From IMG/VR virus record IMGVR_UViG_3300029686_000225: a DNA stretch of 48,664 bases. The stretch is one strand, 5' to 3'. The DNA is from a virus (Duplodnaviria; Heunggongvirae; Uroviricota; Caudoviricetes). Shown here one piece after another: positions 4,280 to 39,149 of the stretch (positions within the stretch are counted from its first letter, which is position 1; each line of letters opens with the position of its first letter). Both the position numbers and the translations under genes were made by a program. The notes under the pieces are model-generated. The model was given only the letters and a program-made list of their open reading frames with translations. It searched no databases and was not told where the DNA came from.

Positions 4280-4591
4280 TCACTGAGACACTATTAAAAG
4301 CGCGTTTTCCAGTCCGGCAAATGGATCTGATACGCCTTCTATCTGCTCCTTCTCCCACTGAAGAAGCGCATCATTCAGTGGCACTTTGACCCCCTGCGCA
4401 CCGTAAACAGCTGAAACAATCTGGGCAGCCCGGATATCAGCCCGTTCGTCTCCCAGCGGGCTGAACCTGTCAAATTCTGCCCACATCATGATTTCTGATG
4501 CGGACATTTCCCGGCGTAACTCTGACAATGTGCGCCCCATCCTGAGCGCCAGCATCATCAGAAAACGCATCCCCGGAAGCGCTACTTTTTT
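4280..4591 (-). CDS. tail assembly chaperone T-like extension, made as a -1 frameshift fusion with the upstream G ORF
   Basis: ORF in the -1 frame relative to G, starting inside the G 3' end; slippery A AAA AAG at 4585-4591 just before the G stop. Confidence 0.6.
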   Translation of the reverse strand, partial: KKVALPGMRFLMMLALRMGRTLSELRREMSASEIMMWAEFDRFSPLGDERADIRAAQIVSAVYGAQGVKVPLNDALLQWEKEQIEGVSDPFAGLENALLIVSQ

Positions 4592-4968
4592 TTAACCTCT
4601 CCGGCATCACTGATCAGTTCCAGAGACTGCCGAAGAAGCCGCGCATGCACCGGGCCATACACGGCAATCACCTGTTCACGATCATCCTCTGAAAATACAG
4701 GTTGCAGTCCGGTATCACACAGAACATCAATGAACAGTTCAACGTCCGCCTCCAGATTTCGGCGGGCACGCTCTGCAACAGATGGCGATGTATCATCTTC
4801 CCTGGCTTTAACGATCTCCTGCCAGCGCAACCAGGCTTCTGCAGAAGGTTCCCGTAATACAACCGTTGCTCCCTCCCATTCAGGCACATCAACGGTTTTA
4901 TGGCGAAACCCCGACATCGTTGCCAGTGCCAGATTACGGATATTTTTAGTCATCACATCCATCCTCAT
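4582..4968 (-). CDS. tail assembly chaperone (lambda gpG-like)
   Basis: 128-aa acidic ORF between major tail and tape measure genes ending ...GEVKKK*; start overlaps the major tail stop as TAATG. Confidence 0.75.
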   Translation of the reverse strand: MRMDVMTKNIRNLALATMSGFRHKTVDVPEWEGATVVLREPSAEAWLRWQEIVKAREDDTSPSVAERARRNLEADVELFIDVLCDTGLQPVFSEDDREQVIAVYGPVHARLLRQSLELISDAGEVKKK

Positions 4969-5672
4969 TAACTGACGGTTACAGTGCAGGAAGTGGAGGT
5001 CACTTTGTTAACCGGGCTTGCTGAATCAGAAATCTCGCAGGTATACGCACCGGCATCACCAGATGCTGCTGATGCCTTACTGAACGTTGCCGCCGTCTGT
5101 CCGGAAACAGGAGAACTACCTTTCTTCCAGACATAAGAATAAGGCGGCACACCACCGGCAGCCTCAACCACCATTTCGAGTTTCGCTCCGGCAGAAACCT
5201 GCAGCGTGCTGTTTAAATCGACCTTCACTTTCAGCGGCTCTGTCGTCAGCACAGGTTTACCTTTCAGGCGCAGGGAAAACGTTGCAGCCACAACACCATT
5301 GGTTCCTGCAGACCAGGTATGCTGACGCACCTCTGCCATAAAGGTAAATCCGTTTCCTGACGGAAAAATAACTTTAAAGCCATACGTGGTGTCATTGTCA
5401 TAGGCACTGCGCAACGCGTTCTGGGCAGCATTGAGGTAAAAGTTGCCTGACATGGAAATCTCTGACGCGGCACCAAGACCGTTAATATTTTCCTGCTCAA
5501 CAGAACACAGCGTGGTGACATCAATATCCTGCTTTTGTCCTGCGGTAAACTGCACCTCTTTGATTGTACAGCTCAGGCCAAGATAGCTGGCAGAATCCAG
5601 GGTTTCTGCTGTTACCGGTGCAGACGAAATCATAATTTTCGTCAGTTGCGAACGCTCAAAATTAGAGGACAT
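4968..5672 (-). CDS. major tail protein with C-terminal Ig-like domain
   Basis: Position upstream of G/GT and tape measure; ATG at 5672 preceded by AGGAG with 6-nt spacer; Ig-like C-terminus (GGVPPYSYVWKK...YTCEISD). Confidence 0.8.
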   Translation of the reverse strand: MSSNFERSQLTKIMISSAPVTAETLDSASYLGLSCTIKEVQFTAGQKQDIDVTTLCSVEQENINGLGAASEISMSGNFYLNAAQNALRSAYDNDTTYGFKVIFPSGNGFTFMAEVRQHTWSAGTNGVVAATFSLRLKGKPVLTTEPLKVKVDLNSTLQVSAGAKLEMVVEAAGGVPPYSYVWKKGSSPVSGQTAATFSKASAASGDAGAYTCEISDSASPVNKVTSTSCTVTVS

Positions 5673-10530: not shown

Positions 10531-11256
10531 TTAAAGCGAGCGGATACCAACACTGATCAGGTGTTCAGACAGATCCGGCTCCGGTTCACCGCCATTGACC
10601 AGCATCCGGCTCATTGCTGTAAACATCGCAACAGGGCCGTCGATTTTGGCTTCAGGCGTGGATTTATTCGGGAAGATATTGTCGTTTTTGTCCGGTTTTA
10701 CCGTAACGTTAGACATCATCCAGTTCATGACCGGGTGATTACTGTGATGGAAACGTCCGGCATAGACCAGTGATTCCGTTTCCTTCATGGCCTCTGACAG
10801 ATTGCGGACCGTCTGCGGAACTTCCACCAGCGGTATACCTTCTTCAGCCAGCGCCAGACTGAACTGCATTGCACTCCACGGGTCAAATCCCAGTTCCCTG
10901 AGGTTTTCACCACCAATCCATTCCAGTAAGTCACTTTTTATCTGAGCATGATCGATAACATCACCATCCGTCAGGATGAGCTTATCCATCTCCGCCCATT
11001 TCCGGTAAAGTTCTGCCTGCTGCCGCGAGCACCGCTCCAGCCGTCCTTCCGGGAGCCAGAATTTAAAATCAGCATGAACATGTCCGTTATCGGTTCGCCA
11101 GAGTTTTGCCGCCGCACAGATATCAATCTTATGAGCAAGGTCGACGCCGACCCACATGGGATACGTTTTCAGCTCATGTCGTGGGGCAATATATTCGCAT
11201 TTCTCCCACTTAATCATGTCCATCCAGGCAGACTCTGCTGTTACCCACACATTCAT
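10531..11256 (-). CDS. terL: terminase large subunit, C-terminal nuclease part of a gene interrupted by the inserted element
   Basis: Colinear with the C-terminal 240 aa of the intact satellite TerL ([13 protein letters not shown] vs NIWCQGATPWMGN); no N-terminal ATPase domain in this ORF; upstream in frame reads LTKH then a stop. Confidence 0.85.
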
Positions 11257-11260
11257 GTGT

Positions 11261-11274
11261 TTGGTAAGAATATT
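11261..11274. repeat. left junction repeat of inserted element (att core TTGGTAAGAATATT)
   Basis: 12 of 14 identical to 26211-26224; 7-bp perfect core TTGGTAA; lies in terL codons L-T-K. Confidence 0.7.
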
Positions 11275-11520: not shown

Positions 11521-11701
11521 CAATTTTTCGTATATATATACAAAACAGCGCGGGTTATGCGGGTTAGCGGGTTATCTTCGCGTGCTAAGTATTTTTACTC
11601 TTTAATATCAATGCGTTAAAAAACAACGTATTTAAATATCAGCCAGAATGTAACCCGCAAGACATTCAAAATAACCCGCAAACACCCCTCAAATAACCCG
11701 C
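11521..11701. repeat. iteron cluster (GCGGGTTA x3 direct, TAACCCGC x3 inverted) with adjacent (TA)n tract
   Basis: Direct copies at 11550, 11559, 11567; inverted at 11651, 11672, 11694; alternating TATATATATA at 11531-11545. Confidence 0.7.
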
Positions 11702-16020: not shown

Positions 16021-16581
16021 TCACAACCCCGCCAGTTCAGCCCAGCGATGACGATTATTTCCTGTCGGGCGTAATTCAGGGTGCTGTGCAAACAACGAAC
16101 GGTGGGCAATCTCCACGCCGGATTCGGGATAAGCAGGCATCGACGTTATCGTGATTTCACGGAGTTCTGCGGCGGTAACAGTGCGCAGATACGGTTTTTG
16201 CGCGATATTCCATTCTTCGCATAATGCGCGAAAGCCAAAGCTCATTCCTGTAATGTCGCCACGCTCCACCAGCGTAAGCACATCTTTTCCAAGCTGGGTA
16301 TCAGGCGGTGTCAGTTCAAAACGTAGCCCGGTGTTGTCCTCAGTCAGTACCAGTGTTCCGGATTTGGTGCGCCCCAGCAGTCGGGTATAGTCATGCTCAT
16401 ACAGGCAGCGCACATCATTACCCGCCGCCAGATAGTCAGCAAAAGCCCCCGGCGTGAACTGTTCGCGGAATTCGTCCCAGATAATTTCTGAAAGGCTGTT
16501 CCAGCGAACGGCATAACCCACCAGTTTTTTATCGCTGGCGGTCAGTTCAGATGTACGGATTTCAAAATCGGTATTTTTCAT
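16021..16581 (-). CDS. prohead protease, HK97 family (satellite)
   Basis: About 186 aa; GGAG RBS; motifs LGRTKSGTL and MSFGF typical of the prohead protease family. Confidence 0.8.
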   Translation of the reverse strand: MKNTDFEIRTSELTASDKKLVGYAVRWNSLSEIIWDEFREQFTPGAFADYLAAGNDVRCLYEHDYTRLLGRTKSGTLVLTEDNTGLRFELTPPDTQLGKDVLTLVERGDITGMSFGFRALCEEWNIAQKPYLRTVTAAELREITITSMPAYPESGVEIAHRSLFAQHPELRPTGNNRHRWAELAGL

Positions 16582-16630
16582 CGGTGTACTCCATAAAGCT
16601 GAAAAAGGAGGCCGAAGCCCCCTTTGCTCA

Positions 16631-17776
16631 TTACTTGCCAGCCTGAATTTCCAGAATCTTGATGGCGTTCGAATCCACCACACCACCGCCCAGATATTTC
16701 TGGGTATAGATGTTAATGAATCCGGGTTCGCTGAAATCCGGACGGGTTCGCGTACCGGTTTCATGGTCAACGATGAAATAACCGCGCTTAAAGTCACCTA
16801 CTGCAATCACACCGTCCGGCATAAATTCCAGATATTCAACCGGAAGCCCCAGCAGAGAATCAGGATCACCAGCCTGTAAACGATCGCGCCAGATGTAATC
16901 ACCAGTGGCATTTTTCAGTTTTTGTGCGGAGGCGGCTGTATTTGAGTTCATCACCCATACAGCTTTTTTGCGGTACTTATTGCGTAGCGTAAATTTCAGG
17001 TCAATCAGCATGTCGGCGCTGAGACTGCCAGTCACTTTTTTCGTCTGGAGCGTACCGAAAGGACGGGTTTTGTCGTTATCCGCAGTGCGCGGAAAAGCCA
17101 GGAAACCTTTAGCTTTTTTCTCGCCATCACCAGAAACCAGATCCGTTTCTTCGGTATCAACGAAAGTGTCGCCAATTTCAGAAGATAACCAGCTCATAAT
17201 ATCGACTTCGGAAAAATCGATAATTTCCTGAGTGGTTTTTGGGTAAGCGTAGATCGGATACAGGCGGATACTGACTTCATTCAGTTTTGGGGTTGCCGTC
17301 TGGTTACGTGTAGTGCCTTCTTCACCGTGTTCAACGACCGCGCCCCCGGCAGAAACCAGTTGCTTAAATTCATTGCTGTGAATGGTTTTAACGGTACAGA
17401 TTTTACGCATCACCGATTCATCAGAAAGCTGACGCATAATTTCTCTGTTCAGTTCCGGGATAACCGTATAACCACCATCAGCCGGGACACTGCCAGACAG
17501 GTTGCGGGTTTCCCCGGTCAGAATGTAAGAGCGCAGTTCGTCTTTGGTTATTTTCTCTTCGACGGAAACACCAGGCTGGTTACGTTCTTCATCAGCCACA
17601 GATTCGAGGCGGGAAATTTCTGTGTCGAGGGAATCGGCTTTTGCACGCAGTTCATCAAACTGTTTGCCCTCGTCATCGTTCAGGCTGCGGTTTTCACTGT
17701 CGGCTTTTTCCAGCAGGGATCGCATCTGGTTTTTCAGGGCGGTTTTTTGCTGGCGGAGTTCGATTAATTTCTTCAT
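16631..17776 (-). CDS. major capsid protein, HK97 family (satellite)
   Basis: 381 aa with N-terminal coiled coil and HK97-like core. Confidence 0.9.
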   Translation of the reverse strand: MKKLIELRQQKTALKNQMRSLLEKADSENRSLNDDEGKQFDELRAKADSLDTEISRLESVADEERNQPGVSVEEKITKDELRSYILTGETRNLSGSVPADGGYTVIPELNREIMRQLSDESVMRKICTVKTIHSNEFKQLVSAGGAVVEHGEEGTTRNQTATPKLNEVSIRLYPIYAYPKTTQEIIDFSEVDIMSWLSSEIGDTFVDTEETDLVSGDGEKKAKGFLAFPRTADNDKTRPFGTLQTKKVTGSLSADMLIDLKFTLRNKYRKKAVWVMNSNTAASAQKLKNATGDYIWRDRLQAGDPDSLLGLPVEYLEFMPDGVIAVGDFKRGYFIVDHETGTRTRPDFSEPGFINIYTQKYLGGGVVDSNAIKILEIQAGK

Positions 17777-18013
17777 GAAGGTTTTCTCGTATTGGTTAAG
17801 ATTCAGGACGTGAAACCAACACGGAGGGAGCGCCGCCCGACACTCTCGGCATCTCGCAGATCAACCCGGCATCGCGCAGGGGGTCAGGCGGCATTGTGGC
17901 GGCTCACGTCTGAGTGCCACACGCCAACATATACATAAAAATCAGTATGTAAACATCAGCCAGAATCACCGAACAACCTGGAACAACCACGAACAAATAA
18001 TTTACAAAACCTG

Positions 18014-18040
18014 AAAAAAAGACCCGGAAAAATCCGGGCC
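18014..18040 (-). terminator. intrinsic terminator
   Basis: Hairpin CCCGGAAAAATCCGGG flanked by A-run and T-run; minus strand reads hairpin then TCTTTTTTTC. Confidence 0.5.
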
Positions 18041-18049
18041 TTTATCGCT

Positions 18050-18298
18050 TTATTGTTTCACTGGATCCCGCATTCTGCGTCTTATTTTCCACAGATATTC
18101 GATCATCGCTTCCACCTGCTCACGGTTGGTTGCGAAAATTTCCCCGGTCAGTGAGCTACGCAGAAAATCATGATGATCCACAACAAACAACGCATCGGAA
18201 GAAAGCAGACGGCGATATTTTTTTGCTGTCGTGGTTTCCAGATCATCAAAACCATGAAATTTTTTATGTTGCTGGACTTCTTCAAATGTCACTGGCAT
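18050..18298 (-). CDS. hypothetical protein
   Basis: 82-aa ORF with AAGGGGG RBS; no recognisable motif. Confidence 0.5.
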   Translation of the reverse strand: MPVTFEEVQQHKKFHGFDDLETTTAKKYRRLLSSDALFVVDHHDFLRSSLTGEIFATNREQVEAMIEYLWKIRRRMRDPVKQ

Positions 18299-18831
18299 GT
18301 ATCCCCCTTTACTGCCCGGCGCTGGCGCTTGTGCTTCTCATTCAGCGCCATCAGCCGCGTTTCTGCCTCCTGCTGTTCCTGTGGTGTCACCTCGCCGCAC
18401 GGCTGGCCTTTCAGGTCGTAACGTGCACCACCAGCCATTAAGGCGCGGTAATAGCGCGGAGACTGCGCATAGGATGCCAGCGTCGCACGTAATGCCCCCG
18501 GCCCGAATGTCAGCCCCCTGGCGGCGATATCCTGCATCAGGTCGTCGCATATCCCCACCTTAAGCGGCTTCGGTGCTTCCCGGCTGAATAAGTCAGGCCA
18601 CATCTCTGTGAGGCGGTTAACGCGCCTGCGGTTTTTGCGCTGGCGTTTGGTCATATGCCGCCACGGTGTCGCCTCTGTGGGCTTCTGTTTGCGGCTCTGC
18701 TGTGCGTTCTGATTGCCGGGCATCACTTTATGCGCCGATGTGGCTTTATCCTGCTGCTGTGCCGTCTGCGTTGTTTTCTGCGGCGTGCCGTAAATGCCTT
18801 TCGGTTTTCGGTTAATGGTCAGCGTTGTCAT
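18289..18831 (-). CDS. ProQ/FinO-family RNA-binding protein
   Basis: C-terminal region PLKVGICDDLMQD...LRATLASYAQSPRYYRALMAGGARYDLKGQPCGEV resembles the ProQ/FinO domain; basic N-terminus. Confidence 0.65.
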   Translation of the reverse strand: MTTLTINRKPKGIYGTPQKTTQTAQQQDKATSAHKVMPGNQNAQQSRKQKPTEATPWRHMTKRQRKNRRRVNRLTEMWPDLFSREAPKPLKVGICDDLMQDIAARGLTFGPGALRATLASYAQSPRYYRALMAGGARYDLKGQPCGEVTPQEQQEAETRLMALNEKHKRQRRAVKGDTCQ

Positions 18832-18867
18832 GCTTTCCCCTGTAATAACTCTGTTCGCTGTTGTGAA

Positions 18868-19293
18868 TTAAAACGGTATGTTATCCCCGTACGGGTCATC
18901 GTGCTGGCTTGTCTGTTGTTTTGCCCTGTTCAGTGCGTCAGTGGCCTGGCCCTGCTGGCCTTTTTTGCCGCCCGGTCGCGCCGTTCGCGCACTGATTACG
19001 CTGTCTGCGATAACCTGCCAGCCCTGTCGCGTTTCCCCGTTCTGGCCTGTCCACTGGCTTACCTGCATGTTACCCGCCACGCTCACCAGTTCGCCTTTGC
19101 GGTGTTTTGCCAGTGCGTCGGCCTGTCTGCCAAACGCCAGGACAGATAACCACATCGTCGCCGTTCCGTCATCTGCCTGGCTGCACGGCAGGGGAACCGC
19201 CATACTCGCCATAGCCATTTGTGTCCCCTTGCTGGTGGTCTTTAACTGCGGGTCAGCCACCAGCCGCCCGTAAGCCGCTATCTGTGCTGTCAT
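18868..19293 (-). CDS. ssb: single-stranded DNA-binding protein
   Basis: OB-fold pattern and acidic C-terminal tail ...DDPYGDNIPF. Confidence 0.8.
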   Translation of the reverse strand: MTAQIAAYGRLVADPQLKTTSKGTQMAMASMAVPLPCSQADDGTATMWLSVLAFGRQADALAKHRKGELVSVAGNMQVSQWTGQNGETRQGWQVIADSVISARTARPGGKKGQQGQATDALNRAKQQTSQHDDPYGDNIPF

Positions 19294-19357: not shown

Positions 19358-19480
19358 GCGGGTTATAATCGCACTTTTGCGGGTTATAACTGCCGTTTTG
19401 CGGGTTACGTGCGGGTTATTGATTTCCTTTTTATTCATACAGTTAATGCACTTATGCACAGGATAACCCGCATAACCCGC
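19358..19480. repeat. candidate replication origin iterons (GCGGGTTA x4 direct, TAACCCGC x2 inverted)
   Basis: Direct copies at 19358, 19379, 19400, 19411 (21, 21, 11 bp spacing); inverted at 19464, 19473; immediately 3' of the primase-helicase gene. Confidence 0.7.
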
Positions 19481-19503: not shown

Positions 19504-21627
19504 TTAATCTTCTGCCTCAGGCTGGAACATCAGCACGTAAAAAACATGCTGCTTCCCCCCAATTTTGCCGAGCGCCTTTTTCTTGTAACGGCGATCGTTA
19601 CCCGCTTCCAGCATTCCGGCAGCACTCAACGCGCGGGCAAAGTGAGACGGATTAAATCCCTGTGCTATCTCACCCTCAAATACATGCGGGAACGTGTAAA
19701 AACGGAACTCGTCATCTTCGTTTCTGATACACCCCTTTCTGTATCCGGCAAGCTCTTTAATCGGTAAATCACGCTCGTCGGTGTTGGGCCACGGAAGGTA
19801 TCTGCTGAATCCGAACGACGCTAAAAAAGCCTCTGCCTGTTCAACCATCTGTTTAAACTCCCTGTTACCCGTGCCGAACTCCTTCACCCAGGCATTAAAA
19901 TTATGCTGAATGGCATCGCGGCACGCCTGAACATCCCAACCAGTAATATGGACGGAAAGCACCAGCGCCGACTCCAGCATGGCGAATCGTTCCCCCACAC
20001 GGTGAACCTGTTCGCCGTAACTCTCCGGTATCAGGTTGCGCCACCGTTCACGGCATGCCCTTACCGTATCCTTTGCCTCCTGCTGGTGGTCTGCCAGCCA
20101 TTTAACCCATTCACGCCCCGCCGCCCCGTGATTTTCTGTCCAGGCATCCTTTAACGCGTCTGCGTGTGCCTTTCCGGTGCTGTATTCGTGAAACTGCGTG
20201 GCTTTTTCCATTGGCACGTTAAGCAGGCGGACAAGCTGCCCCGCCTTGACTTTTATCCCCTCCGTTTTGAGGAATGTCTCAACGTCCATTTCTCCGGTGC
20301 TGATTGCCACCGTGCGCCAGTGTTTGATCTCCCTGTTGCCGCCGTCCTTCGCCCCCTGTAATTTCCCCGAACCGTTAAACAGCGTATAAGCCGACGTGGA
20401 CACTTCCCGCGCGTTTCCGGCCTGGCCTATTTCATCCAGGGGTAAAAGCCCGTCATTGTGTGCCTCTGCTTCGTTGGCGATACCTAACGCTGTGCCGTAC
20501 CAGGTCAGCCGCTGCGCGTCCGGCTCTCCCCATAAACTTGATGCGATGTTCTGCGTTGTGGTCTTACCTGCCGATGACTGTTCGAAAAGATGTACCCCGA
20601 AGCCGTCAGCACCCACCAGCCCGATTAATGGTGCGGATAGCGATACCGCCACACCCAGCATCATGGACGGATTACCACCAGCCAGTCGCGCCACACTGTC
20701 GCGCCAGCCCTCCGCCGTTCCTGCCACGGAATAACCATTAACGGCAGCCGTTTTTCCGGTAAACAGGACTGGCTTTTCGCAATCACCAATGACCGAACCG
20801 TCCGGCATGATGTACGCGCCAAAATGCCAGCCCGTTGTTGTGCTTAACTGCCATTCCTCATGGTTTCCGCTTAACTGCATCCAGTCAGCCAGGATAGCCC
20901 TGTATTTACCGTTGGTTGTCACGTTCAGTCCGTGGTCTTTCAGCAGCCGCCAGCCGTCACGGTCGCCAATGCCACCGCACGGAACCGCCATCGTGATGAC
21001 TTCATGGTTTGCTGGCTTTTTCCAGCGCATCACGCGGTAATGCTCTTTGCCGATTGTCCCCGTTCCCAGTAGCTCAAGCGGGGAGCATAACCACGTTTCA
21101 GGCCGGATAATTTCGCCTGACTGCTTATCCACTTTTGGCGTTACCCAGAAAACACCATCGGCGCGGCTTTCAACGCGGGGCTTTAATTCATCATCACCCG
21201 GGCTTTCTGTGATTTTTTTCTTTAAGGGCAACACCAGACTTTCCCCGCGCTCGTATTCGTCTTTGAGGCGAGGCAACTGGTCGGATAAATCCGCCGGGCT
21301 GGTGTCAGTTATCCCCGCGTATTCGTATACGGTCTTCACGCCAGCCACAGCCAGCAACGTGACGATCTGTGTGAGGCTACGTTCAGTGATGTGCCCTGCG
21401 CGGTAAATACGCACACACTGACGGCTATCATCAATAATTTGATAACCGGTAATATCTTTCAGGTGTTCATCTGACAGAACGACAGGCGGCACATTGTCGG
21501 CGGCAATATGCTTACCTGCCCATTCCTGCCACTCTTTCGCATGGCTCCACGCATCACTACCCGCAAAGATGATAACCTCCGTCATTTTGTCGGCTGGCTG
21601 GTGCTTTAAGTTTGGTGCGCGCTTCAT
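19504..21627 (-). CDS. replication initiator, putative primase/helicase
   Basis: 707 aa with Walker A-like SSAGKTT; sits next to the iteron cluster as PICI/P4 replication genes do. Confidence 0.7.
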   Translation of the reverse strand: MKRAPNLKHQPADKMTEVIIFAGSDAWSHAKEWQEWAGKHIAADNVPPVVLSDEHLKDITGYQIIDDSRQCVRIYRAGHITERSLTQIVTLLAVAGVKTVYEYAGITDTSPADLSDQLPRLKDEYERGESLVLPLKKKITESPGDDELKPRVESRADGVFWVTPKVDKQSGEIIRPETWLCSPLELLGTGTIGKEHYRVMRWKKPANHEVITMAVPCGGIGDRDGWRLLKDHGLNVTTNGKYRAILADWMQLSGNHEEWQLSTTTGWHFGAYIMPDGSVIGDCEKPVLFTGKTAAVNGYSVAGTAEGWRDSVARLAGGNPSMMLGVAVSLSAPLIGLVGADGFGVHLFEQSSAGKTTTQNIASSLWGEPDAQRLTWYGTALGIANEAEAHNDGLLPLDEIGQAGNAREVSTSAYTLFNGSGKLQGAKDGGNREIKHWRTVAISTGEMDVETFLKTEGIKVKAGQLVRLLNVPMEKATQFHEYSTGKAHADALKDAWTENHGAAGREWVKWLADHQQEAKDTVRACRERWRNLIPESYGEQVHRVGERFAMLESALVLSVHITGWDVQACRDAIQHNFNAWVKEFGTGNREFKQMVEQAEAFLASFGFSRYLPWPNTDERDLPIKELAGYRKGCIRNEDDEFRFYTFPHVFEGEIAQGFNPSHFARALSAAGMLEAGNDRRYKKKALGKIGGKQHVFYVLMFQPEAED

Positions 21628-21938
21628 TTTGCCTTTCCCCGTTCACGAATAATTTCACGTACTGCCTTAATGCGTTCCATTCCTGTAACGCGCATGATTC
21701 TGTCGATGTCGCTTAATTCTGCTGGTGGTGCTTTGCTTACCAGGGTGAACTCCCTGTCAAAGCGCATATGTGACGACACGCAGGGATGCGCATAACCTTC
21801 GCGGATATAGGTCACACGAAAATCATCGACGGTTTTAATCGTTATCGTGCTGCCGTATTTATCCCGGAAAATATCACCGGGGCGGATTTCAGGCCGAGCG
21901 TGACCGCTGGCAGTAAAGCCAGAATTTTTCTTTTTCAT
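21624..21938 (-). CDS. hypothetical protein
   Basis: 104-aa ORF; stop overlaps primase start (ATGA). Confidence 0.5.
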   Translation of the reverse strand: MKKKNSGFTASGHARPEIRPGDIFRDKYGSTITIKTVDDFRVTYIREGYAHPCVSSHMRFDREFTLVSKAPPAELSDIDRIMRVTGMERIKAVREIIRERGKAK

Positions 21939-22594: not shown

Positions 22595-22691
22595 AGCTAC
22601 CTCGATACTTCTGCTATCGTTGGTGGTTAGAAGCCCTGCGAGTGGTAACGACACTTGCGGGGCTTTGCATTTATGCGCCTTGATAATTTTA

Positions 22692-22727
22692 AGGTGTGGC
22701 CCACTATATGTTTTAGGTGTGGCCCAC
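22692..22727. promoter_or_regulatory. two 13-bp direct repeats AGGTGTGGCCCAC in a divergent promoter region (candidate operator)
   Basis: Repeats at 22692-22704 and 22715-22727, 23 bp apart, followed by TATACT and the RHH gene RBS. Confidence 0.45.
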
Positions 22728-22793
22728 GTCAAGAGTTTTATTTGTGCTTTTTCTGTGTATACTGTCCCCCACCAATCCACCAGAGGAATAGAA

Positions 22794-22973: not shown

Positions 22974-23310
22974 CCATCACCAGCGCCGTGGTGTGAGGAA
23001 TCACGGCGGCAACCATAGGAGTAAAAGATGCCAAAACTTAAAAATTGTGCACTCTGTGCGATTGTTCTAATTGTCGCCGCCTTTATCTTAAAATCATGCT
23101 TCGAGAAAAAGAATCTTTGCGGAAGCAATGAAGGCGATATATTACGGCGTGCTTGCGATATAGAGTTGAAAAAAAGTTGAGCATAACCTAACCGCGACAA
23201 TGCCGTAGTTCCTGTAATTACAGAACAGCTCAGGATTTGCCCACCAGCCGCAAATGTGGCATTGTTGGTTATGCTCATGCGTTGGGGATAACGTGTAGCT
23301 TGTGTCAAGG

Positions 23311-23339: not shown

Positions 23340-23376
23340 CCTGTTATCCTGCAACTATGGTCATTTCGACCACGGT

Positions 23377-23465
23377 TGATATAATCCCCCCGCACAGATT
23401 CATTTTTTGCGCAGTAGGTTAATTGTTCGCAAGGGCGCTCCGGTAACGGGGCGCTTTTTGTTTTT
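23377..23465 (+). ncRNA. candidate small RNA (extended -10 promoter to intrinsic terminator)
   Basis: TGATATAAT at 23377-23385; hairpin GCGCTCCGGTAACGGGGCGC plus T-run at 23435-23465; no ORF. Confidence 0.3.
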
Positions 23466-23623
23466 ACCCACCAGCACAATAAAAATCTTCATTTTCCATT
23501 TTTGTAAAATTTCATGCTTTCCGGACGACTGGTAATATGTCATTTTTTAGCAGAAGATTTTGCCTTGCTGGTGGGTAGCTTCCCGGTCAACACGATGTAC
23601 CGTATAATCAACACCGCGTGTGG

Positions 23624-26039: not shown

Positions 26040-26210
26040 GTGATTTATAACCCGTTTTTGCAATACACAGTGCAATACACAAATGATGAAAACAGCCAGA
26101 ACCTTCCAGAAAAAACAAAAACGACGAACAAGAAAAAATCTTTTTCTTTCATTTGGTTACTAAAAAAATCAGGACAGGTCGCACTGTTGTTACGGCGTGA
26201 TGTTACTTTC

Positions 26211-26224
26211 TTGGTAAAAAAATT
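26211..26224. repeat. right junction repeat of inserted element (TTGGTAAAAAAATT)
   Basis: Partner of 11261-11274; lies in terL codons F-T-K. Confidence 0.7.
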
Positions 26225-35947: not shown

Positions 35948-37045
35948 TTATGGTATTAATCCAGCTGTTCTTGCTTTATTAATATAATTTTTACAGTGGT
36001 TAGCCAAATACTCTGCAAACTTGCATGGAAGTGCATTTCCTATTATGACGCATACTTTATCCATCAAGGCTGTATCAAACACATAGTTATCAGGAAAAGT
36101 CTGTAGTCTAGCAGCTTCTCGAACAGAAATAGTACGCGTATCCTCAGGATGTCCATATCGCCCACGGCTTAAAGTTGTGCACCCACCTGTAATCGTAGGC
36201 GATACGTCATCCCAAAGCATACGACCATAAACATTACTAAATCCTTTATAGTCGCCTTTATGGCAATCTGGACGGAGTTCTTCGGGAATACACTCCCAAG
36301 ACATCCCTGGAACAGCCGCTTGTAACCGCTTTATATTGATCTCAGACAAATCCCTAACAATATGCCAACTCGACAATGGAAACTTCCCTTGCTTCTTAGC
36401 CTGTGAAAGGGTTAAGGGTTTTGGCATATCTCCAATAGCTTCTTTAACAGTTACCCATTTGGGTTTCTCTCTTCCATCCTTAGAGTGTGATCCATCAGGC
36501 AATGGGATGGCAAATCCTTTTCCTGCCAACAGAACAAGTCTTTTTCTGAACTGTGGTACACCAAAGTCAGCTACTTGCAAAACTCCATAATTAACTATGT
36601 AACCAAGTTTTTTCAATCTCTCAATTACTGGCGAAAGAAGATGATTTCCCCGGGAAGCTAATCCAGGAACATTTTCCATCATGATTGCTGATGGATTGGT
36701 TTCTTCAACCAACCGTAACATCTCGTTAATCAATAAATTACGAGGGTCCTCCCTTTTATACTTGGCAGTGAGACTAGTAAATCCTTGACATGGCGGGCAC
36801 GCAGATAAAAGATCTAAATGTTGCTCAGGGATAAGATTTAGGATATCACTCCCCTTTACAAACCGAATATCTTGAACAAAGAGTTTTGTCTCACGATGAT
36901 TTGCTTGGAAAGTAGCGGCGGCATGTGCGTCCAGTTCAACGGCAGCTTTGACATCAAACCCGGCCATTTTTAGTCCCATGGTTAGTCCCCCACCACCGCT
37001 AAATAGGTCAACTGCATTCAAACTGGTCACTGTTTTCTCACTCAT
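35948..37045 (-). CDS. DNA (cytosine-5)-methyltransferase
   Basis: Motif I DLFSGGGG, motif IV PPCQGFT, ENV, C-terminal GNALP. Confidence 0.85.
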   Translation of the reverse strand: MSEKTVTSLNAVDLFSGGGGLTMGLKMAGFDVKAAVELDAHAAATFQANHRETKLFVQDIRFVKGSDILNLIPEQHLDLLSACPPCQGFTSLTAKYKREDPRNLLINEMLRLVEETNPSAIMMENVPGLASRGNHLLSPVIERLKKLGYIVNYGVLQVADFGVPQFRKRLVLLAGKGFAIPLPDGSHSKDGREKPKWVTVKEAIGDMPKPLTLSQAKKQGKFPLSSWHIVRDLSEINIKRLQAAVPGMSWECIPEELRPDCHKGDYKGFSNVYGRMLWDDVSPTITGGCTTLSRGRYGHPEDTRTISVREAARLQTFPDNYVFDTALMDKVCVIIGNALPCKFAEYLANHCKNYINKARTAGLIP

Positions 37046-39149
37046 TATTTCCCAACTTCAACTGTTCTGCCTCATCCAAGAATTCTTGGTGAGTTTGAGT
37101 TGTCCTCAGCAAGAACCCTGCCCAATCAACGGGTGTTAGGCGTTTTTCTTCGATGTATGCAGTATAAGCTTTACGACGTGCCCCACTCAAGCGCTCCCCA
37201 TCACTTACCAGCGTAACGTGAAAATCAGATGCTATTGATTTAAAATCATTATGTCTCTCATCGTTCAAAAATTCCTCGAATGTTTCGAAGTAATTAATAA
37301 TACGATCCATTTCATCATTGGAAATATAATGATGTGGCTTTTTTATTTCAATTATTTGTAATTTTCCATCCTGACTAAACAATACAAAGTCTGGTCTTTT
37401 ATTTTTTTTATCAAAATCTATAAGAAATATCTCCTCACCAGTTTTCTTTTTATAAAATTTTTGAAACTCCCTTTTAAGCGTGGACAACGTTTTATTTGCT
37501 GTAACTGGGACCCATTGAGGGTTAACTAGCCACGGAGCGGATGCAATTAGATCTTGTAACTCATCTTCTGCTGTATCCTTTGCGTCTTTTAAAGACTCGA
37601 GACGCTCAATAATCTGAAGACGCTTTTTGACCTTTTGACCAAAACTAACGGTTTCAGCTAGTTGAGCCGTTGCTAAAATATCATTGAGAACATTGAGCGG
37701 TGTATCCGCTTTACTGGAAGCTTCTATTAACTTCTCATCTAAGGATTGTAATGGTGCTAACATAATACTTAACTGCACTAAATTCTCGAGTGCATCAGGA
37801 TCATGTAATTCATCACCTCGTAAAGATTTACCCAACAACTTGGCTATTTTTTTAGCCTGTGCTCGCATATCCTTTTGACTGGCTCCAGGGTATGCTTGCT
37901 CGACCTTATCCTCCACTTGCGCTAATTCGAAGAATTGATTCATCATATTATTTCTAAGGGGGTCGCGAGTTATTTTACCCACAAGTAAAATAACTTCTTG
38001 CCCCCAATTCTGAAATTGCGTTCCTAAATCATCAGACCATAGAATATCCCTTCTATCAGTTTGGATAAGATCTTCTTTTTCGTCTAACCAGTCAGCATGC
38101 AACTCACCTACCAAATATGAACGTATAGAGTGCTCTCCAGTAAAACCAGCTTTTCTATTAAAAACTGCTGTTTGCGCAGCAAACTTACCTCGGCAATAAA
38201 TTCTAACACCTGCCATTAACTCGTCCTTATAAGGCTCTTTTGCGTATGCAATCCAACCTAATATCGGGTAAGCTTTCCCTTCATGTTCAAAACCGGCCTT
38301 AACAATTGATGAACGCGTGCCGTCAGGATTAAAAGCCGCATAATCACTTAAATCCGTACAAGAATCCGTCGCAATACTTCCACTCATGGAACGAAATTCA
38401 ATTTTAGAGTTAGGCATAACAGGAACAGTAAACTCTCCGACCTCAACTTCATAGTCAGGATTAGATTTTGTTTTCGAAGTATCAATCAGTTTAATATTCC
38501 AGTTTTTACTCTTCACTCCAAAACGTTGTGAAAGCTGCCGAGATAAATCTTTTATTTCGCTAATTTTTCTATATTCAAAATCACTTAATATTATTTTAGT
38601 ATAGGTCCTGTCACTTAGTGTGCCGTCTAAATCCCCAGTTTCCGGTTTATAAGACACTGCAGTATCATCCATTATTTTTTCTTTATCTAGCCGAATATGA
38701 GCAACCTCATACCCTTCCTTTCCATCACGACTGATTTTTTCCCCACCGGCACTTATAATCTCGACCCTTTTACAAACACCAAAAGGTGCTAATTTCCCAA
38801 CGCCTTTCCGTCCCATGACTTTGCGGTGAAACACCTTCGAGGTTTCACCTCTTTTTGGATCCTTACGTCTTTCTTTGCCAACAACCAAATAAAAGTTCTG
38901 TAGTTCATCAGGCGCCATTCCGACGCCATTATCTTCTACTTCTATTGTGACATTTTTTGACCTGACAACACCATCCTGTCTAACAGCCAAGTATTGGCCC
39001 ATAGGTGCTTTTATAGTGACATTAGTCGCATCTGCATCGTAACTGTTAGATACTAATTCGGCTATAACAGCATAAGCCCTGTCATATAATTTCACACCTA
39101 ATTTATCTACTGTCATCCTTGATATCTGCATTTCATATTGACGCGCCAT
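37038..39149 (-). CDS. GHKL-type ATPase fused to a PD-(D/E)xK-like nuclease domain (candidate restriction/defence enzyme)
   Basis: N-terminal Bergerat motifs ELVSNSYDA, EDNGVGM, GRKGVGK; C-terminal RPDFVLF...LQIIEIKK; overlaps the methyltransferase start by 8 nt. Confidence 0.65.
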   Translation of the reverse strand: MARQYEMQISRMTVDKLGVKLYDRAYAVIAELVSNSYDADATNVTIKAPMGQYLAVRQDGVVRSKNVTIEVEDNGVGMAPDELQNFYLVVGKERRKDPKRGETSKVFHRKVMGRKGVGKLAPFGVCKRVEIISAGGEKISRDGKEGYEVAHIRLDKEKIMDDTAVSYKPETGDLDGTLSDRTYTKIILSDFEYRKISEIKDLSRQLSQRFGVKSKNWNIKLIDTSKTKSNPDYEVEVGEFTVPVMPNSKIEFRSMSGSIATDSCTDLSDYAAFNPDGTRSSIVKAGFEHEGKAYPILGWIAYAKEPYKDELMAGVRIYCRGKFAAQTAVFNRKAGFTGEHSIRSYLVGELHADWLDEKEDLIQTDRRDILWSDDLGTQFQNWGQEVILLVGKITRDPLRNNMMNQFFELAQVEDKVEQAYPGASQKDMRAQAKKIAKLLGKSLRGDELHDPDALENLVQLSIMLAPLQSLDEKLIEASSKADTPLNVLNDILATAQLAETVSFGQKVKKRLQIIERLESLKDAKDTAEDELQDLIASAPWLVNPQWVPVTANKTLSTLKREFQKFYKKKTGEEIFLIDFDKKNKRPDFVLFSQDGKLQIIEIKKPHHYISNDEMDRIINYFETFEEFLNDERHNDFKSIASDFHVTLVSDGERLSGARRKAYTAYIEEKRLTPVDWAGFLLRTTQTHQEFLDEAEQLKLGNNE

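What the first reader, a model, noticed from the sequence alone, without database searches (positions are those of the whole stretch)
18289..18831. Satellite encodes a ProQ/FinO-family RNA-binding protein next to ssb and the origin
FinO/ProQ proteins are RNA chaperones best known from conjugative plasmids and the chromosome. A copy in a phage satellite between the head module and the replication genes suggests RNA-based control of satellite or helper gene expression.
Basis: partly seen in the sequence, partly recalled or inferred. Interest (0 to 1): 0.55.

Follow-up and report, generated by a model that had tools for sequence, protein, structure and literature searches.

The report
FinO-type RNA-binding cassette in satellite
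A small phage satellite lodged inside a prophage carries a swappable gene for a FinO-family RNA-binding protein; the domain call is solid and already in database annotation, but the RNA it controls is unknown and sibling satellites do without it.

Summary
ORF 18289-18831 (minus strand, 180 aa) matches Pfam ProQ/FinO (84 bits, cutoff 27). Its AlphaFold model matches only FinO-domain structures, and the RocC 3'-end pocket residues are present (G93, R115, Y127, R137). It is FinO-like, not ProQ-like: it has a FinO-type N-terminal motif and basic disordered arm and no ProQ C-terminal domain. It fails the curated FinO and ProQ orthologue cutoffs.

The host element is a 14.9-kb capsid-forming PICI-type satellite inserted at a 14-bp core inside the terL gene of a lambdoid prophage. 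The gene follows primase, an iteron cluster and ssb.

The main new result is that the gene is a 561-bp exchangeable cassette. Siblings that are 92-97% identical have PerC, or nothing, between identical breakpoints (18308/18868). It is therefore accessory, not core to replication or packaging.

No RNA partner was found. There is no Rfam ligand family in the window. A conserved 75-nt sRNA candidate at 23392-23466 is identical in a sibling that lacks the gene.

RefSeq already names the gene "ProQ/FINO family protein", about 20% of complete E. coli genomes have a homologue, and two 2026 papers mention such genes in satellites in passing. Verdict: a new member of a known kind, of moderate interest, with function open.

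The parts
18289..18831 (-). Gene for a 180-aa FinO-type RNA-binding protein: N-terminal motif TLTINRKP, disordered basic arm to about residue 55, FinO domain at residues 56-176
   Evidence: ORF; Pfam PF04352 at 84 bits; PDB sequence hits; AF2 model; Foldseek; N-terminal motif shared with plasmid FinO; dN/dS 0.3-0.4
18308..18868 (.). The 561-bp exchangeable cassette (ProQ/FinO ORF plus its ribosome-binding site and the ssb spacer). Siblings have 10 bp (empty) or a 334-bp PerC cassette between the same breakpoints
   Evidence: Breakpoints from blastn and alignment against L016, L026 and L027; annotation of the siblings
18868..19293 (-). Satellite ssb, immediately upstream in the same transcription direction
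   Evidence: PF00436 E=3e-16; TIGR00621 at 63 bits
19294..19503 (.). Primase-ssb intergenic region with 5 copies of the iteron GCGGGTTAT (19358-19480); putative replication origin
   Evidence: 9 copies in the window against 0.25 expected, in two clusters only; 21-nt tandem repeat (D4); 93% conserved in PICIs L006-L011. Origin function is inferred
19504..21627 (-). DUF927 primase/helicase (satellite replicase)
   Evidence: PF06048 E=6e-46; phrog_1139 DNA primase E=2e-174
18050..18298 (-). 82-aa gene of unknown function (phrog_1957). Its ATG overlaps the ProQ/FinO stop by 10 nt; it is present in all siblings whatever fills the slot
18014..18043 (-). Intrinsic terminator ending the primase-ssb-FinO-orf82 operon (GGCCCGGA-UUUU-UCCGGGUC followed by U7)
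   Evidence: Sequence; fold at -18.4 kcal/mol; compensatory C:G to U:A change in L001; also present in ProQ-less L016
11275..26210 (-). The capsid-forming PICI-type satellite (14,936 bp): int, HTH/AlpA, Bro-N, Icd-like, DUF4222, primase, ssb, FinO-like, orf82, capsid, protease, portal, connector, HNH, TerS, TerL
11261..11274 (.). att core copy TTGGTAAGAATATT at the junction with the C-terminal fragment of prophage terL
   Evidence: Alignment to the intact terL of L022; coordinates
26211..26224 (.). att core copy TTGGTAAAAAAATT at the junction with the N-terminal fragment of prophage terL
23392..23466 (+). Candidate ~75-nt sRNA (promoter 23358-23385, terminator 23431-23458). Considered as a ligand but not linked to the gene
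   Evidence: z=-3.7; promoter and terminator conserved in 5 islands; 100% identical in ProQ-less L026

Best explanation
The ORF encodes a FinO-type RNA chaperone carried as an exchangeable accessory cassette. It occupies a fixed slot (ssb-[slot]-orf82) at the 3' end of the replication operon of a capsid-forming PICI-type satellite.

Proposed mechanism: the gene is transcribed together with primase and ssb when the satellite operon is switched on. Its FinO domain grips a terminator-type hairpin and the 3'-terminal nucleotide of the U-tail through the conserved pocket (G93, R115, Y127, R137). Its basic disordered N-terminal arm, which carries the FinO N-terminal motif, helps to protect that RNA or pair it with a partner. 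The RNA targets lie outside the cassette. They are most likely transcripts of the host, the helper prophage or a co-resident plasmid, so the protein would act as an optional post-transcriptional regulator in the same way that PerC, the alternative occupant of the slot, is an optional transcriptional one. It is not needed for satellite replication or packaging.

Shown here: the domain, fold and pocket residues; the FinO-like architecture; the cassette and its breakpoints; the gene order and terminator; purifying selection.

Inferred: RNA binding itself, co-transcription and its timing, and targets acting in trans.
For: Domain and fold.

Pocket residues, defined in PMC9674577, align to G93, R115, Y127 and R137. 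Y127 and R137 are invariant and G93 is at least 90% conserved across homologues down to 29% identity.

FinO-like architecture: the N-terminal motif TL[ST][IL]xRKP is shared with IncF FinO and with intermediates that start MTEQKRPTLTIKRKPK. The protein has pI 10.4, and residues 10-55 are disordered.

Operon layout: a 36-nt gap after ssb, a 10-nt overlap with orf82, then a strong intrinsic terminator.

Accessory status:
- L016 has an empty slot.
- L026 and L027 (E. coli 042) have PerC between identical breakpoints in backbones that are 93-97% identical.
- The EcCIEDL933-type element has PerC.
- About 44 of roughly 131 genomes with this lineage's orf82/capsid-leader segment carry the cassette.

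The gene is maintained by selection: dN/dS 0.3-0.4.

Precedent for action across mobile elements: FinO of pSLT controls RepX of another plasmid (PMC8136791).
Against: No RNA ligand was identified. No Rfam family that FinO/ProQ proteins are known to bind occurs in the window.

Characterised plasmid members (FinO, FopA) have partners encoded on their own element, which argues for a target encoded in cis.

The gene recurs immediately after ssb next to the putative origin, even in PICIs with a different primase type (L023). That could point to a replication-linked role.

Copies in other islands are sometimes frameshifted.

Nothing here measures RNA binding or expression.
Confidence: 0.55

Rival explanations
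1. Self-directed replication or copy-number control. Like FopA with Inc/repZ, or FinO with RepX, the protein would stabilise a satellite antisense RNA that limits synthesis of the primase/replicase or firing of the adjacent iteron origin.
For: The gene sits next to ssb, the iteron cluster and the primase. The same ssb-adjacent position is seen in PICIs with two different primase families. Characterised plasmid members control replication through antisense RNAs. A weak plus-strand hairpin with a T-run lies antisense to the DUF4222 start at 21907-21935.
Against: Siblings without the gene have 93-97% identical primase, origin and ssb, so replication control does not depend on it. No antisense promoter was predicted between 17953 and 22703. 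There is no Rfam antisense family. The antisense hairpin has only 5 bp and lies in K-rich coding sequence.
Confidence: 0.15
2. FinO mimic aimed at F-like plasmids. The satellite would supply FinO activity in trans, stabilising FinP (or RepX-like RNAs) of co-resident IncF plasmids, and so repress conjugation and pilus synthesis.
For: The full-length architecture matches FinO, including the N-terminal motif and a Trp-containing basic segment. FinO acts in trans and across plasmids. FinO-bearing plasmids are very common in E. coli, with more than 5000 plasmid records matching.
Against: Identity to FinO is only 30-34%. The score of 68.9 bits is below the curated FinO cutoff of 136. FopA, although close to FinO in sequence, has a distinct target set, so similarity does not predict the ligand.
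Confidence: 0.1
3. Helper-directed regulator. The protein would bind terminator-bearing RNAs of the helper prophage (late-operon leader, antisense RNAs) to retune helper gene expression in favour of satellite packaging.
For: The satellite sits inside the prophage terL and depends on helper tails. The gene lies at the boundary with the packaging module. ProQ-type proteins bind phage-derived sRNAs (review PMC9977716).
Against: Siblings at the same terL site in the same prophage type do without it. The same gene occurs in PICIs at chromosomal sites and in non-satellite islands. No specific helper RNA candidate emerged.
Confidence: 0.15
4. A passenger gene with no current function, spread only by recombination at the slot.
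For: It is dispensable in siblings. Frameshifted or split copies exist in other islands.
Against: dN/dS is 0.3-0.4 over the whole gene and 0.2-0.36 over the domain. The pocket residues are invariant. Intact copies exist in hundreds of genomes.
Confidence: 0.05

Closest known systems
FinO (fertility inhibition protein of F-like plasmids; PDB 1dvo)
   Same: Same domain and fold. Similar length (180 aa against 186-194 aa). Shared N-terminal motif TL[ST][IL]xRKP and a basic arm ahead of the domain. Carried on a mobile element.
   Different: Only 30-34% identical, and below the NCBIfam FinO cutoff. It is not at the end of a tra operon. No FinP-like RNA is present. It is carried on a phage satellite as a swappable cassette.
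FopA (pCol1B9)
   Same: Small FinO-domain protein of a mobile element that works with an antisense RNA of the replication control region (PMC9977716; PMC8136791). Here the gene lies beside the replicase, origin and ssb.
   Different: No antisense RNA or leader structure equivalent to Inc/repZ was found, and siblings with the same replication module lack the gene. No direct sequence comparison with FopA was made.
ProQ (chromosomal global RNA chaperone; PDB 5nb9)
   Same: Best PDB sequence hit (E=3e-12). The residues that align with RocC Y87/R97 are conserved.
   Different: No linker or C-terminal Tudor-like domain. The score of 56 bits is below the ProQ equivalog cutoff of 127. It has an N-terminal extension instead.
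RocC / NMB1681 / Lpp1663 (minimal or specialised FinO-domain proteins)
   Same: Best structural matches, target-normalised TM 0.8-0.83. The RocC pocket residues G52, R75, Y87 and R97 align to G93, R115, Y127 and R137.
   Different: 25-32% identity, different hosts and contexts. RocC has a long C-terminal extension and a known partner, RocR.
ProQ/FinO-like genes noted in an Enterobacter PICI (AVS0889) and in Vibrio cf-PISP satellite-plasmids
   Same: Same kind of observation: a FinO-family gene on a phage satellite, listed as an accessory regulator or a plasmid-maintenance gene (PMC13612085; PMC13230959).
   Different: Those reports are annotations only. The cassette structure, the PerC/empty alternatives and the FinO-type N-terminal motif were not described there, and their sequences were not compared here.
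PerC-family regulators of PICIs (EcCIEDL933, EcCICFT073, EcCIMP1_025)
   Same: They occupy exactly the same slot with identical breakpoints in sibling satellites and are regarded as accessory regulators of PICIs (PMC11773190).
   Different: PerC is an unrelated protein that acts on transcription, not on RNA. In some islands both genes are present in tandem.

Membership tests
ProQ/FinO domain family (Pfam PF04352) | Profile match above the curated gathering score | tested here: met
   84.3 bits against 27; E=7.3e-24; profile positions 5-108 of 109
ProQ/FinO domain family (Pfam PF04352) | FinO-domain fold | tested here: met
   AF2 pLDDT about 90 for residues 56-176. The top 26 Foldseek PDB hits are all FinO-domain structures, target-normalised TM about 0.8, rmsd about 2.2 A
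ProQ/FinO domain family (Pfam PF04352) | Conserved 3'-nucleotide pocket (RocC Gly52, Tyr87, Arg97; PMC9674577) | tested here: met
   These align to G93, Y127 and R137. Y127 and R137 are invariant and G93 is at least 90% conserved in alignment A3
ProQ/FinO domain family (Pfam PF04352) | Binds a hairpin with a single-stranded 3' tail (terminator-like RNA) | not testable with these tools
   Needs EMSA, RIP-seq or CLIP
FinO sensu stricto (NCBIfam NF010317) | Score at or above the curated cutoff | tested here: not met
   68.9 bits against a cutoff of 136
FinO sensu stricto (NCBIfam NF010317) | Encoded at the distal end of the tra operon of an F-like plasmid (after traX) | tested here: not met
   The gene is chromosomal and lies in a satellite between ssb and orf82. 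Plasmid FinO genes do sit after traX
FinO sensu stricto (NCBIfam NF010317) | A cognate FinP-type antisense RNA on the same element | tested here: not met
   No FinP or other antisense RNA family in permissive Rfam scans of the whole window
FinO sensu stricto (NCBIfam NF010317) | N-terminal extension carrying the conserved FinO N-terminal motif | tested here: met
   MTTLTINRKPKG compared with FinO MTEDKRPTLSLKRKPG; the motif is aligned by MAFFT, with intermediates that start MTEQKRPTLTIKRKPK
ProQ (NCBIfam NF003434 equivalog) | Score at or above the curated cutoff, and a C-terminal Tudor-like domain | tested here: not met
   56 bits against a cutoff of 127. The protein ends about 8 residues after the FinO-domain helix, and there is no second Pfam hit
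Capsid-forming PICI (for the host element) | Integrase, AlpA-type regulator and primase/replicase | tested here: met
   PF00589/PF13356, PF05930 and PF06048
Capsid-forming PICI (for the host element) | [quoted passage not shown] | tested here: met
   PF05065, PF04586, PF04860, PF05135, PF01844, PF05119 and PF03354/PF20441
Capsid-forming PICI (for the host element) | Small size, with no tail or lysis genes | tested here: met
   14,936 bp between att cores. The gene list between the cores has no tail or lysis genes
Capsid-forming PICI (for the host element) | Induced and mobilised by a helper phage whose tails it uses | not testable with these tools
   Needs induction and transfer experiments

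The most novel reading that the evidence does not exclude
The slot after ssb in enterobacterial PICI-type satellites is a dedicated 'regulator cargo' site that alternates between a transcriptional regulator (PerC) and a FinO-type RNA chaperone. On this reading the FinO-type protein acts in trans on terminator-bearing RNAs of the helper prophage, the host or co-resident plasmids. That would be the first case of a phage satellite manipulating other genomes through an RNA chaperone.
Probability: 0.2. Interest if true: 0.7.

Novelty: new member of a known kind. Interest (0 to 1): 0.42.

Why it matters
FinO-family proteins are the third major class of bacterial RNA chaperones. Every characterised member on a mobile element controls the spread or copy number of a mobile element.

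About a fifth of complete E. coli genomes carry a satellite- or island-borne clade of this family, and no ligand is known for it. That is a sizeable blind spot in E. coli post-transcriptional regulation.

Nature has already produced near-isogenic satellites with the gene, with PerC, or with an empty slot. Its contribution to satellite transfer, helper fitness, plasmid conjugation or host gene expression can therefore be tested directly.

If the protein does act on helper or plasmid RNAs, it would add an RNA-level layer to satellite-helper-plasmid conflicts. If it does not, it is one more routinely annotated accessory gene.

Tried and rejected
1. Cognate RNA inside or next to the cassette. The cassette is only the ORF plus 36 nt. 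No plus-strand promoter is predicted between 17953 and 22703. The plus-strand terminator-like hits inside the ORF have 5-6 bp stems in K/R/Q-rich coding sequence. I rejected these as chance.

2. The 75-nt sRNA candidate at 23392-23466. Its promoter and terminator are conserved in five islands and it folds well (z=-3.7). However, the stem is invariant, so there is no covariation. It is missing from the ProQ-bearing loci L006-L011 and is 100% identical in ProQ-less L026. I rejected it as a dedicated partner.

3. A duplex-energy scan of that sRNA against all ORF start regions did no better than shuffled controls.

4. The operon terminator at 18014-18043 as a specific ligand: it is also present in ProQ-less L016.

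5. Rfam at gathering and at permissive thresholds over the whole window found only tRNAs and sub-threshold noise.

6. PADLOC defence models gave no hit for this protein or its neighbours.

7. The genome-contig scan returned a single locus, because the patterns derived from one sequence were too specific.

8. Close relatives among 50,697 deposited phages: none above 41% identity, so this clade is not a feature of autonomous phages.

9. An early idea that the gene might be core to the replication module was rejected after the sibling comparisons.

Full report
**Observation.** The ORF is real and lies at the stated coordinates: 18289-18831 on the minus strand, ATG to TGA, 180 aa. It matches Pfam PF04352 (ProQ/FinO) at E=7.3e-24 and 84.3 bits against a gathering score of 27, over nearly the whole profile. 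NCBIfam places it between FinO (68.9 bits, cutoff 136) and ProQ (56 bits, cutoff 127). It is therefore a family member and an orthologue of neither. PHROGs puts it in phrog_21591, of unknown function.

Sequence search of the PDB finds only FinO-domain proteins: ProQ NTD, FinO, NMB1681, Lpp1663 and RocC. An AlphaFold2 model built from 29 homologues is confident for residues 56-176 (pLDDT about 90) and disordered for residues 10-55. In Foldseek against the PDB, the top 26 hits are all FinO-domain structures, with target-normalised TM about 0.8 and rmsd about 2.2 A. The next hit has E>1.

**RNA-binding residues.** The RocC-terminator structure paper names Tyr87 and Arg97, with Gly52, as the conserved pocket for the 3'-terminal nucleotide, and shows that R75D, Y87F and R97M are the strongest mutants (PMC9674577). 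In the HMMER alignment to RocC these residues correspond to G93, R115, Y127 and R137 of the window protein. Y127 and R137 are invariant, and G93 is at least 90% conserved, across homologues down to 29% identity.

**Architecture.** The protein is FinO-like, not ProQ-like. It has no C-terminal extension after the domain. It has a basic N-terminal arm (overall pI 10.4). Its first residues, MTTLTINRKPKG, align with the N-terminus of an IncFII FinO, MTEDKRPTLSLKRKPG. Intermediate relatives start MTEQKRPTLTIKRKPK.

**The host element.** The gene sits in a 14,936-bp element bounded by imperfect copies of a 14-bp core, TTGGTAA(A/G)AA(A/T)ATT, at 11261-11274 and 26211-26224. Read on the minus strand, the element encodes integrase, two HTH/AlpA-type proteins, Bro-N, an Icd-like protein, DUF4222, a DUF927 primase/helicase, ssb, the FinO-like protein and an 82-aa protein. 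These are followed by capsid, prohead protease, portal, head-tail connector, HNH, TerS and TerL. It has no tail or lysis genes. That is the gene set of a capsid-forming PICI as listed in the figure legend of PMC13612085; the founding description is 10.1101/2022.09.08.507074.

The element is inserted in the large terminase gene of a complete lambdoid prophage. The N-terminal fragment of that gene (26045-27238) ends at nuclease-profile position 68, and the C-terminal fragment (10531-11256) begins at position 64. An uninterrupted copy of the same terL in an ST131 genome reads straight through the core.

**The origin.** The 210-nt gap between primase and ssb holds 5 of the window's 9 exact GCGGGTTAT copies, where 0.25 are expected by chance. 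The other 4 lie near the TerL-proximal end of the element. An iteron origin is a reasonable inference, and the region is 93% conserved in related islands. No replication data exist here.

**Operon context.** There are 36 nt between the ssb stop and the FinO-like ATG, which is preceded by AGGGGA. The FinO-like stop overlaps the ATG of the 82-aa gene by 10 nt. A strong intrinsic terminator (GGCCCGGA-UUUU-UCCGGGUC followed by U7, at 18014-18043) comes right after that gene. In L001 the terminator carries a compensatory C:G to U:A change. A promoter-like site lies at 17953-17926, and a ~55-nt element at 17971-18028, conserved in the same position in the O157:H7 satellite, precedes the capsid gene. 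The gene is thus the penultimate cistron of the replication operon, not part of the head module. Co-transcription is inferred from the layout.

**The key comparative result.** The gene is a cassette.
- L016 (strain DAX4) is a satellite 92-93% identical across TerL-to-orf82 and ssb-to-primase. In it, window positions 18308-18868 (561 bp) are replaced by 10 bp, and the flanking ribosome-binding contexts are alike (ACAGGGG...ATG).
- L026 (APEC17) and L027 (E. coli 042) are siblings 93-97% identical, inserted at the same terL site. They carry a 334-bp PerC cassette between exactly the same breakpoints.
- The O157:H7 element (L017) also has PerC after ssb. I take it to be EcCIEDL933-type by its gene content; identity with EcCIEDL933 was not checked.
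- Other islands carry both genes: ssb-ProQ-PerC in Salmonella, and ssb-PerC-ProQ in a PICI with a D5_N/DUF5906 primase.
- Many E. coli PICI-type islands without capsid genes have int-AlpA-AntA/Bro-DUF4222-DUF927-ssb-ProQ followed by variable cargo.

As a rough estimate, 44 genomes have the full orf82-ProQ-ssb arrangement against 131 with this lineage's orf82/capsid-leader segment. So the protein is optional for the satellite. It occupies a recombination hot spot for regulators and is not tied to the capsid module.

**Distribution.** DNA-level homologues occur in 1093 of 5426 complete E. coli genomes. All are chromosomal, with up to 9 per genome. More divergent copies (about 73% nt identity) lie in other integrative islands with inovirus-Gp2/YfjJ-like and YfjI genes, and some are split or frameshifted. 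No deposited phage has a relative above 41% identity. Plasmid FinO proteins are 30-40% identical. In a library clustered at 50% identity, only 7 representatives score below 1e-30, so the clade is narrow. The gene is under purifying selection, with dN/dS 0.3-0.4 against four relatives.

**Search for the RNA partner.** FinO-domain proteins recognise a hairpin with a 3' tail, typically a terminator (PMC9977716; PMC9674577). I looked for such RNAs:
- Rfam finds no known ligand family anywhere in the window.
- The cassette holds no room for a separate gene, and no antisense promoter is predicted in it.
- The operon terminator is shared with the ProQ-less sibling L016.
- A plus-strand unit at 23392-23466 looked promising. 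Its -10 box, body and strong terminator are conserved in five islands, it is about 75 nt long, and it folds with z=-3.7. But it shows no covariation, it is absent from several ProQ-bearing islands, and it is 100% identical in ProQ-less L026. A target scan gave nothing above shuffled controls.

No satellite-encoded RNA co-varies with the gene in the loci I could compare.

**Interpretation.** I think the protein is most likely a working FinO-type chaperone, expressed with the replication operon, that acts on RNAs encoded outside the cassette: host, helper prophage or co-resident plasmids. This would parallel PerC, its alternative in the slot, which is regarded as an accessory regulator of PICIs (PMC11773190). 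It also parallels FinO of pSLT, which regulates RepX of an unrelated plasmid (PMC8136791). My confidence is about 0.55.

The rivals are self-directed replication control (0.15), helper-directed regulation (0.15), a FinO mimic acting on IncF plasmids (0.10) and a functionless passenger (0.05). The position next to ssb and the origin, seen with two primase families, is the main argument for a replication link. The identical replication modules in siblings that lack the gene are the main argument against.

**Novelty.** RefSeq already names the gene 'ProQ/FINO family protein'. The family review notes phage-borne members. Two 2026 papers list ProQ/FinO-like genes in an Enterobacter PICI and in Vibrio satellite-plasmids without functional work. 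The founding cf-PICI preprint does not mention such a gene. What this analysis adds is the cassette structure with exact breakpoints, the PerC/empty alternatives, the FinO-type N-terminal motif, and negative evidence on a cis partner. I rate it a new member of a known kind, with moderate interest because the natural near-isogenic variants make the function directly testable.

**Limits.** The structure alignment is shallow (29 sequences, all at least 53% identical). Promoter and terminator calls are pattern matches. The frequency estimate mixes two searches with different queries. Assigning L017 to the EcCIEDL933 type is an inference. Nothing here shows RNA binding or expression.

Noticed in passing
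window 10531-11256 and 26045-27238; cores at 11261-11274 and 26211-26224; also L001, L026, L027: The satellite is integrated site-specifically inside the large-terminase gene of a complete lambdoid prophage, splitting it within the nuclease domain. An intact copy of this terL reads through the 14-bp core TTGGTAAAAAAATT. The same insertion recurs in several strains, including E. coli 042. While the satellite is integrated, the prophage's own packaging enzyme is disrupted. That satellites can integrate in prophages is mentioned in PMC10085698; I did not check whether this particular site has been described.
   Followed up: partly
L018 (NZ_CP095823.1), locus 4371-5153 and 16036-16869: A different PICI-type satellite (int, AlpA, Bro, P4-family primase, ssb, capsid, decoration protein, TerS) is inserted in the portal gene of a lambda-like prophage, and both portal fragments are annotated. 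Morphogenesis genes of prophages may be recurrent satellite attachment sites.
   Followed up: no
window 18308-18868 compared with L016, L026, L027, L017: The slot between ssb and the 82-aa gene alternates between ProQ/FinO, PerC and empty, with identical breakpoints in otherwise 92-97% identical satellites. Similar ribosome-binding contexts (ACAGGGG) flank the slot.
   Followed up: yes
window 11550-11701: A second cluster of the iteron GCGGGTTAT (4 copies, two in each orientation) lies downstream of the satellite TerL near the att end. The region 11522-11605 matches the primase-ssb gap of the Salmonella islands L012-L015. It could be a second origin, a partition or packaging site, or a relic.
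   Followed up: partly
window 23358-23466 (+): A conserved promoter (-10 TATAAT with a TG extension), a ~75-nt body and a strong terminator lie opposite to the satellite's main transcription, downstream of Bro-N. The unit is present in five islands and folds well (z=-3.7). It is a likely small RNA of the satellite backbone, with unknown target.
   Followed up: partly
window 22683-22727 and 22703-22732 (-): Two tandem 22-nt repeats (ATAATTTTAAGGTGTGGCCCAC and ATATGTTTTAGGTGTGGCCCAC) overlap the best sigma-70-like promoter of the replication operon, in the divergent region between the YlcI/YnfO-like gene and the Icd-like gene. They look like operator sites.
   Followed up: no
window 17971-18028 and 17945-17966 / 11628-11649: A ~55-nt element with GGTTGTTC repeats, just upstream of the capsid-operon promoter, is conserved in the same position in the O157:H7 capsid-forming satellite (L025). 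A 22-nt piece that includes the -35 box is repeated downstream of the satellite TerL (91% identical), where it would point towards the prophage portal, head and tail genes.
   Followed up: partly
window 18014-18043 compared with L001: The operon terminator differs between the window and L001 by a compensatory pair (GGCCCGGA/TCCGGGTC against GGCCTGGA/TCCAGGTC), which supports a functional hairpin.
   Followed up: no
window 35948-39149 (-): A low-GC stretch (38-43%) in the prophage encodes a C-5 cytosine methylase and a 703-aa HATPase_c_3 protein with a weak HSDR_N-like region. This may be a restriction or defence cargo pair.
   Followed up: no
window 23028-23180 (+): A 50-aa ORF with a hydrophobic, Cys-containing N-terminus (MPKLKNCALCAIVLIVAAFILKSC...) follows the YlcI/YnfO-like gene. 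It could be a small membrane protein or lipoprotein.
   Followed up: no
L002-L004 (E. coli islands with inovirus-Gp2/YfjJ-like and YfjI genes): Divergent copies of the same FinO-like gene occur in non-satellite integrative islands next to dnd/dpt or resistance cargo. They are often split into a 57-aa N-terminal ORF and a 114-aa domain ORF, or are frameshifted.
   Followed up: partly
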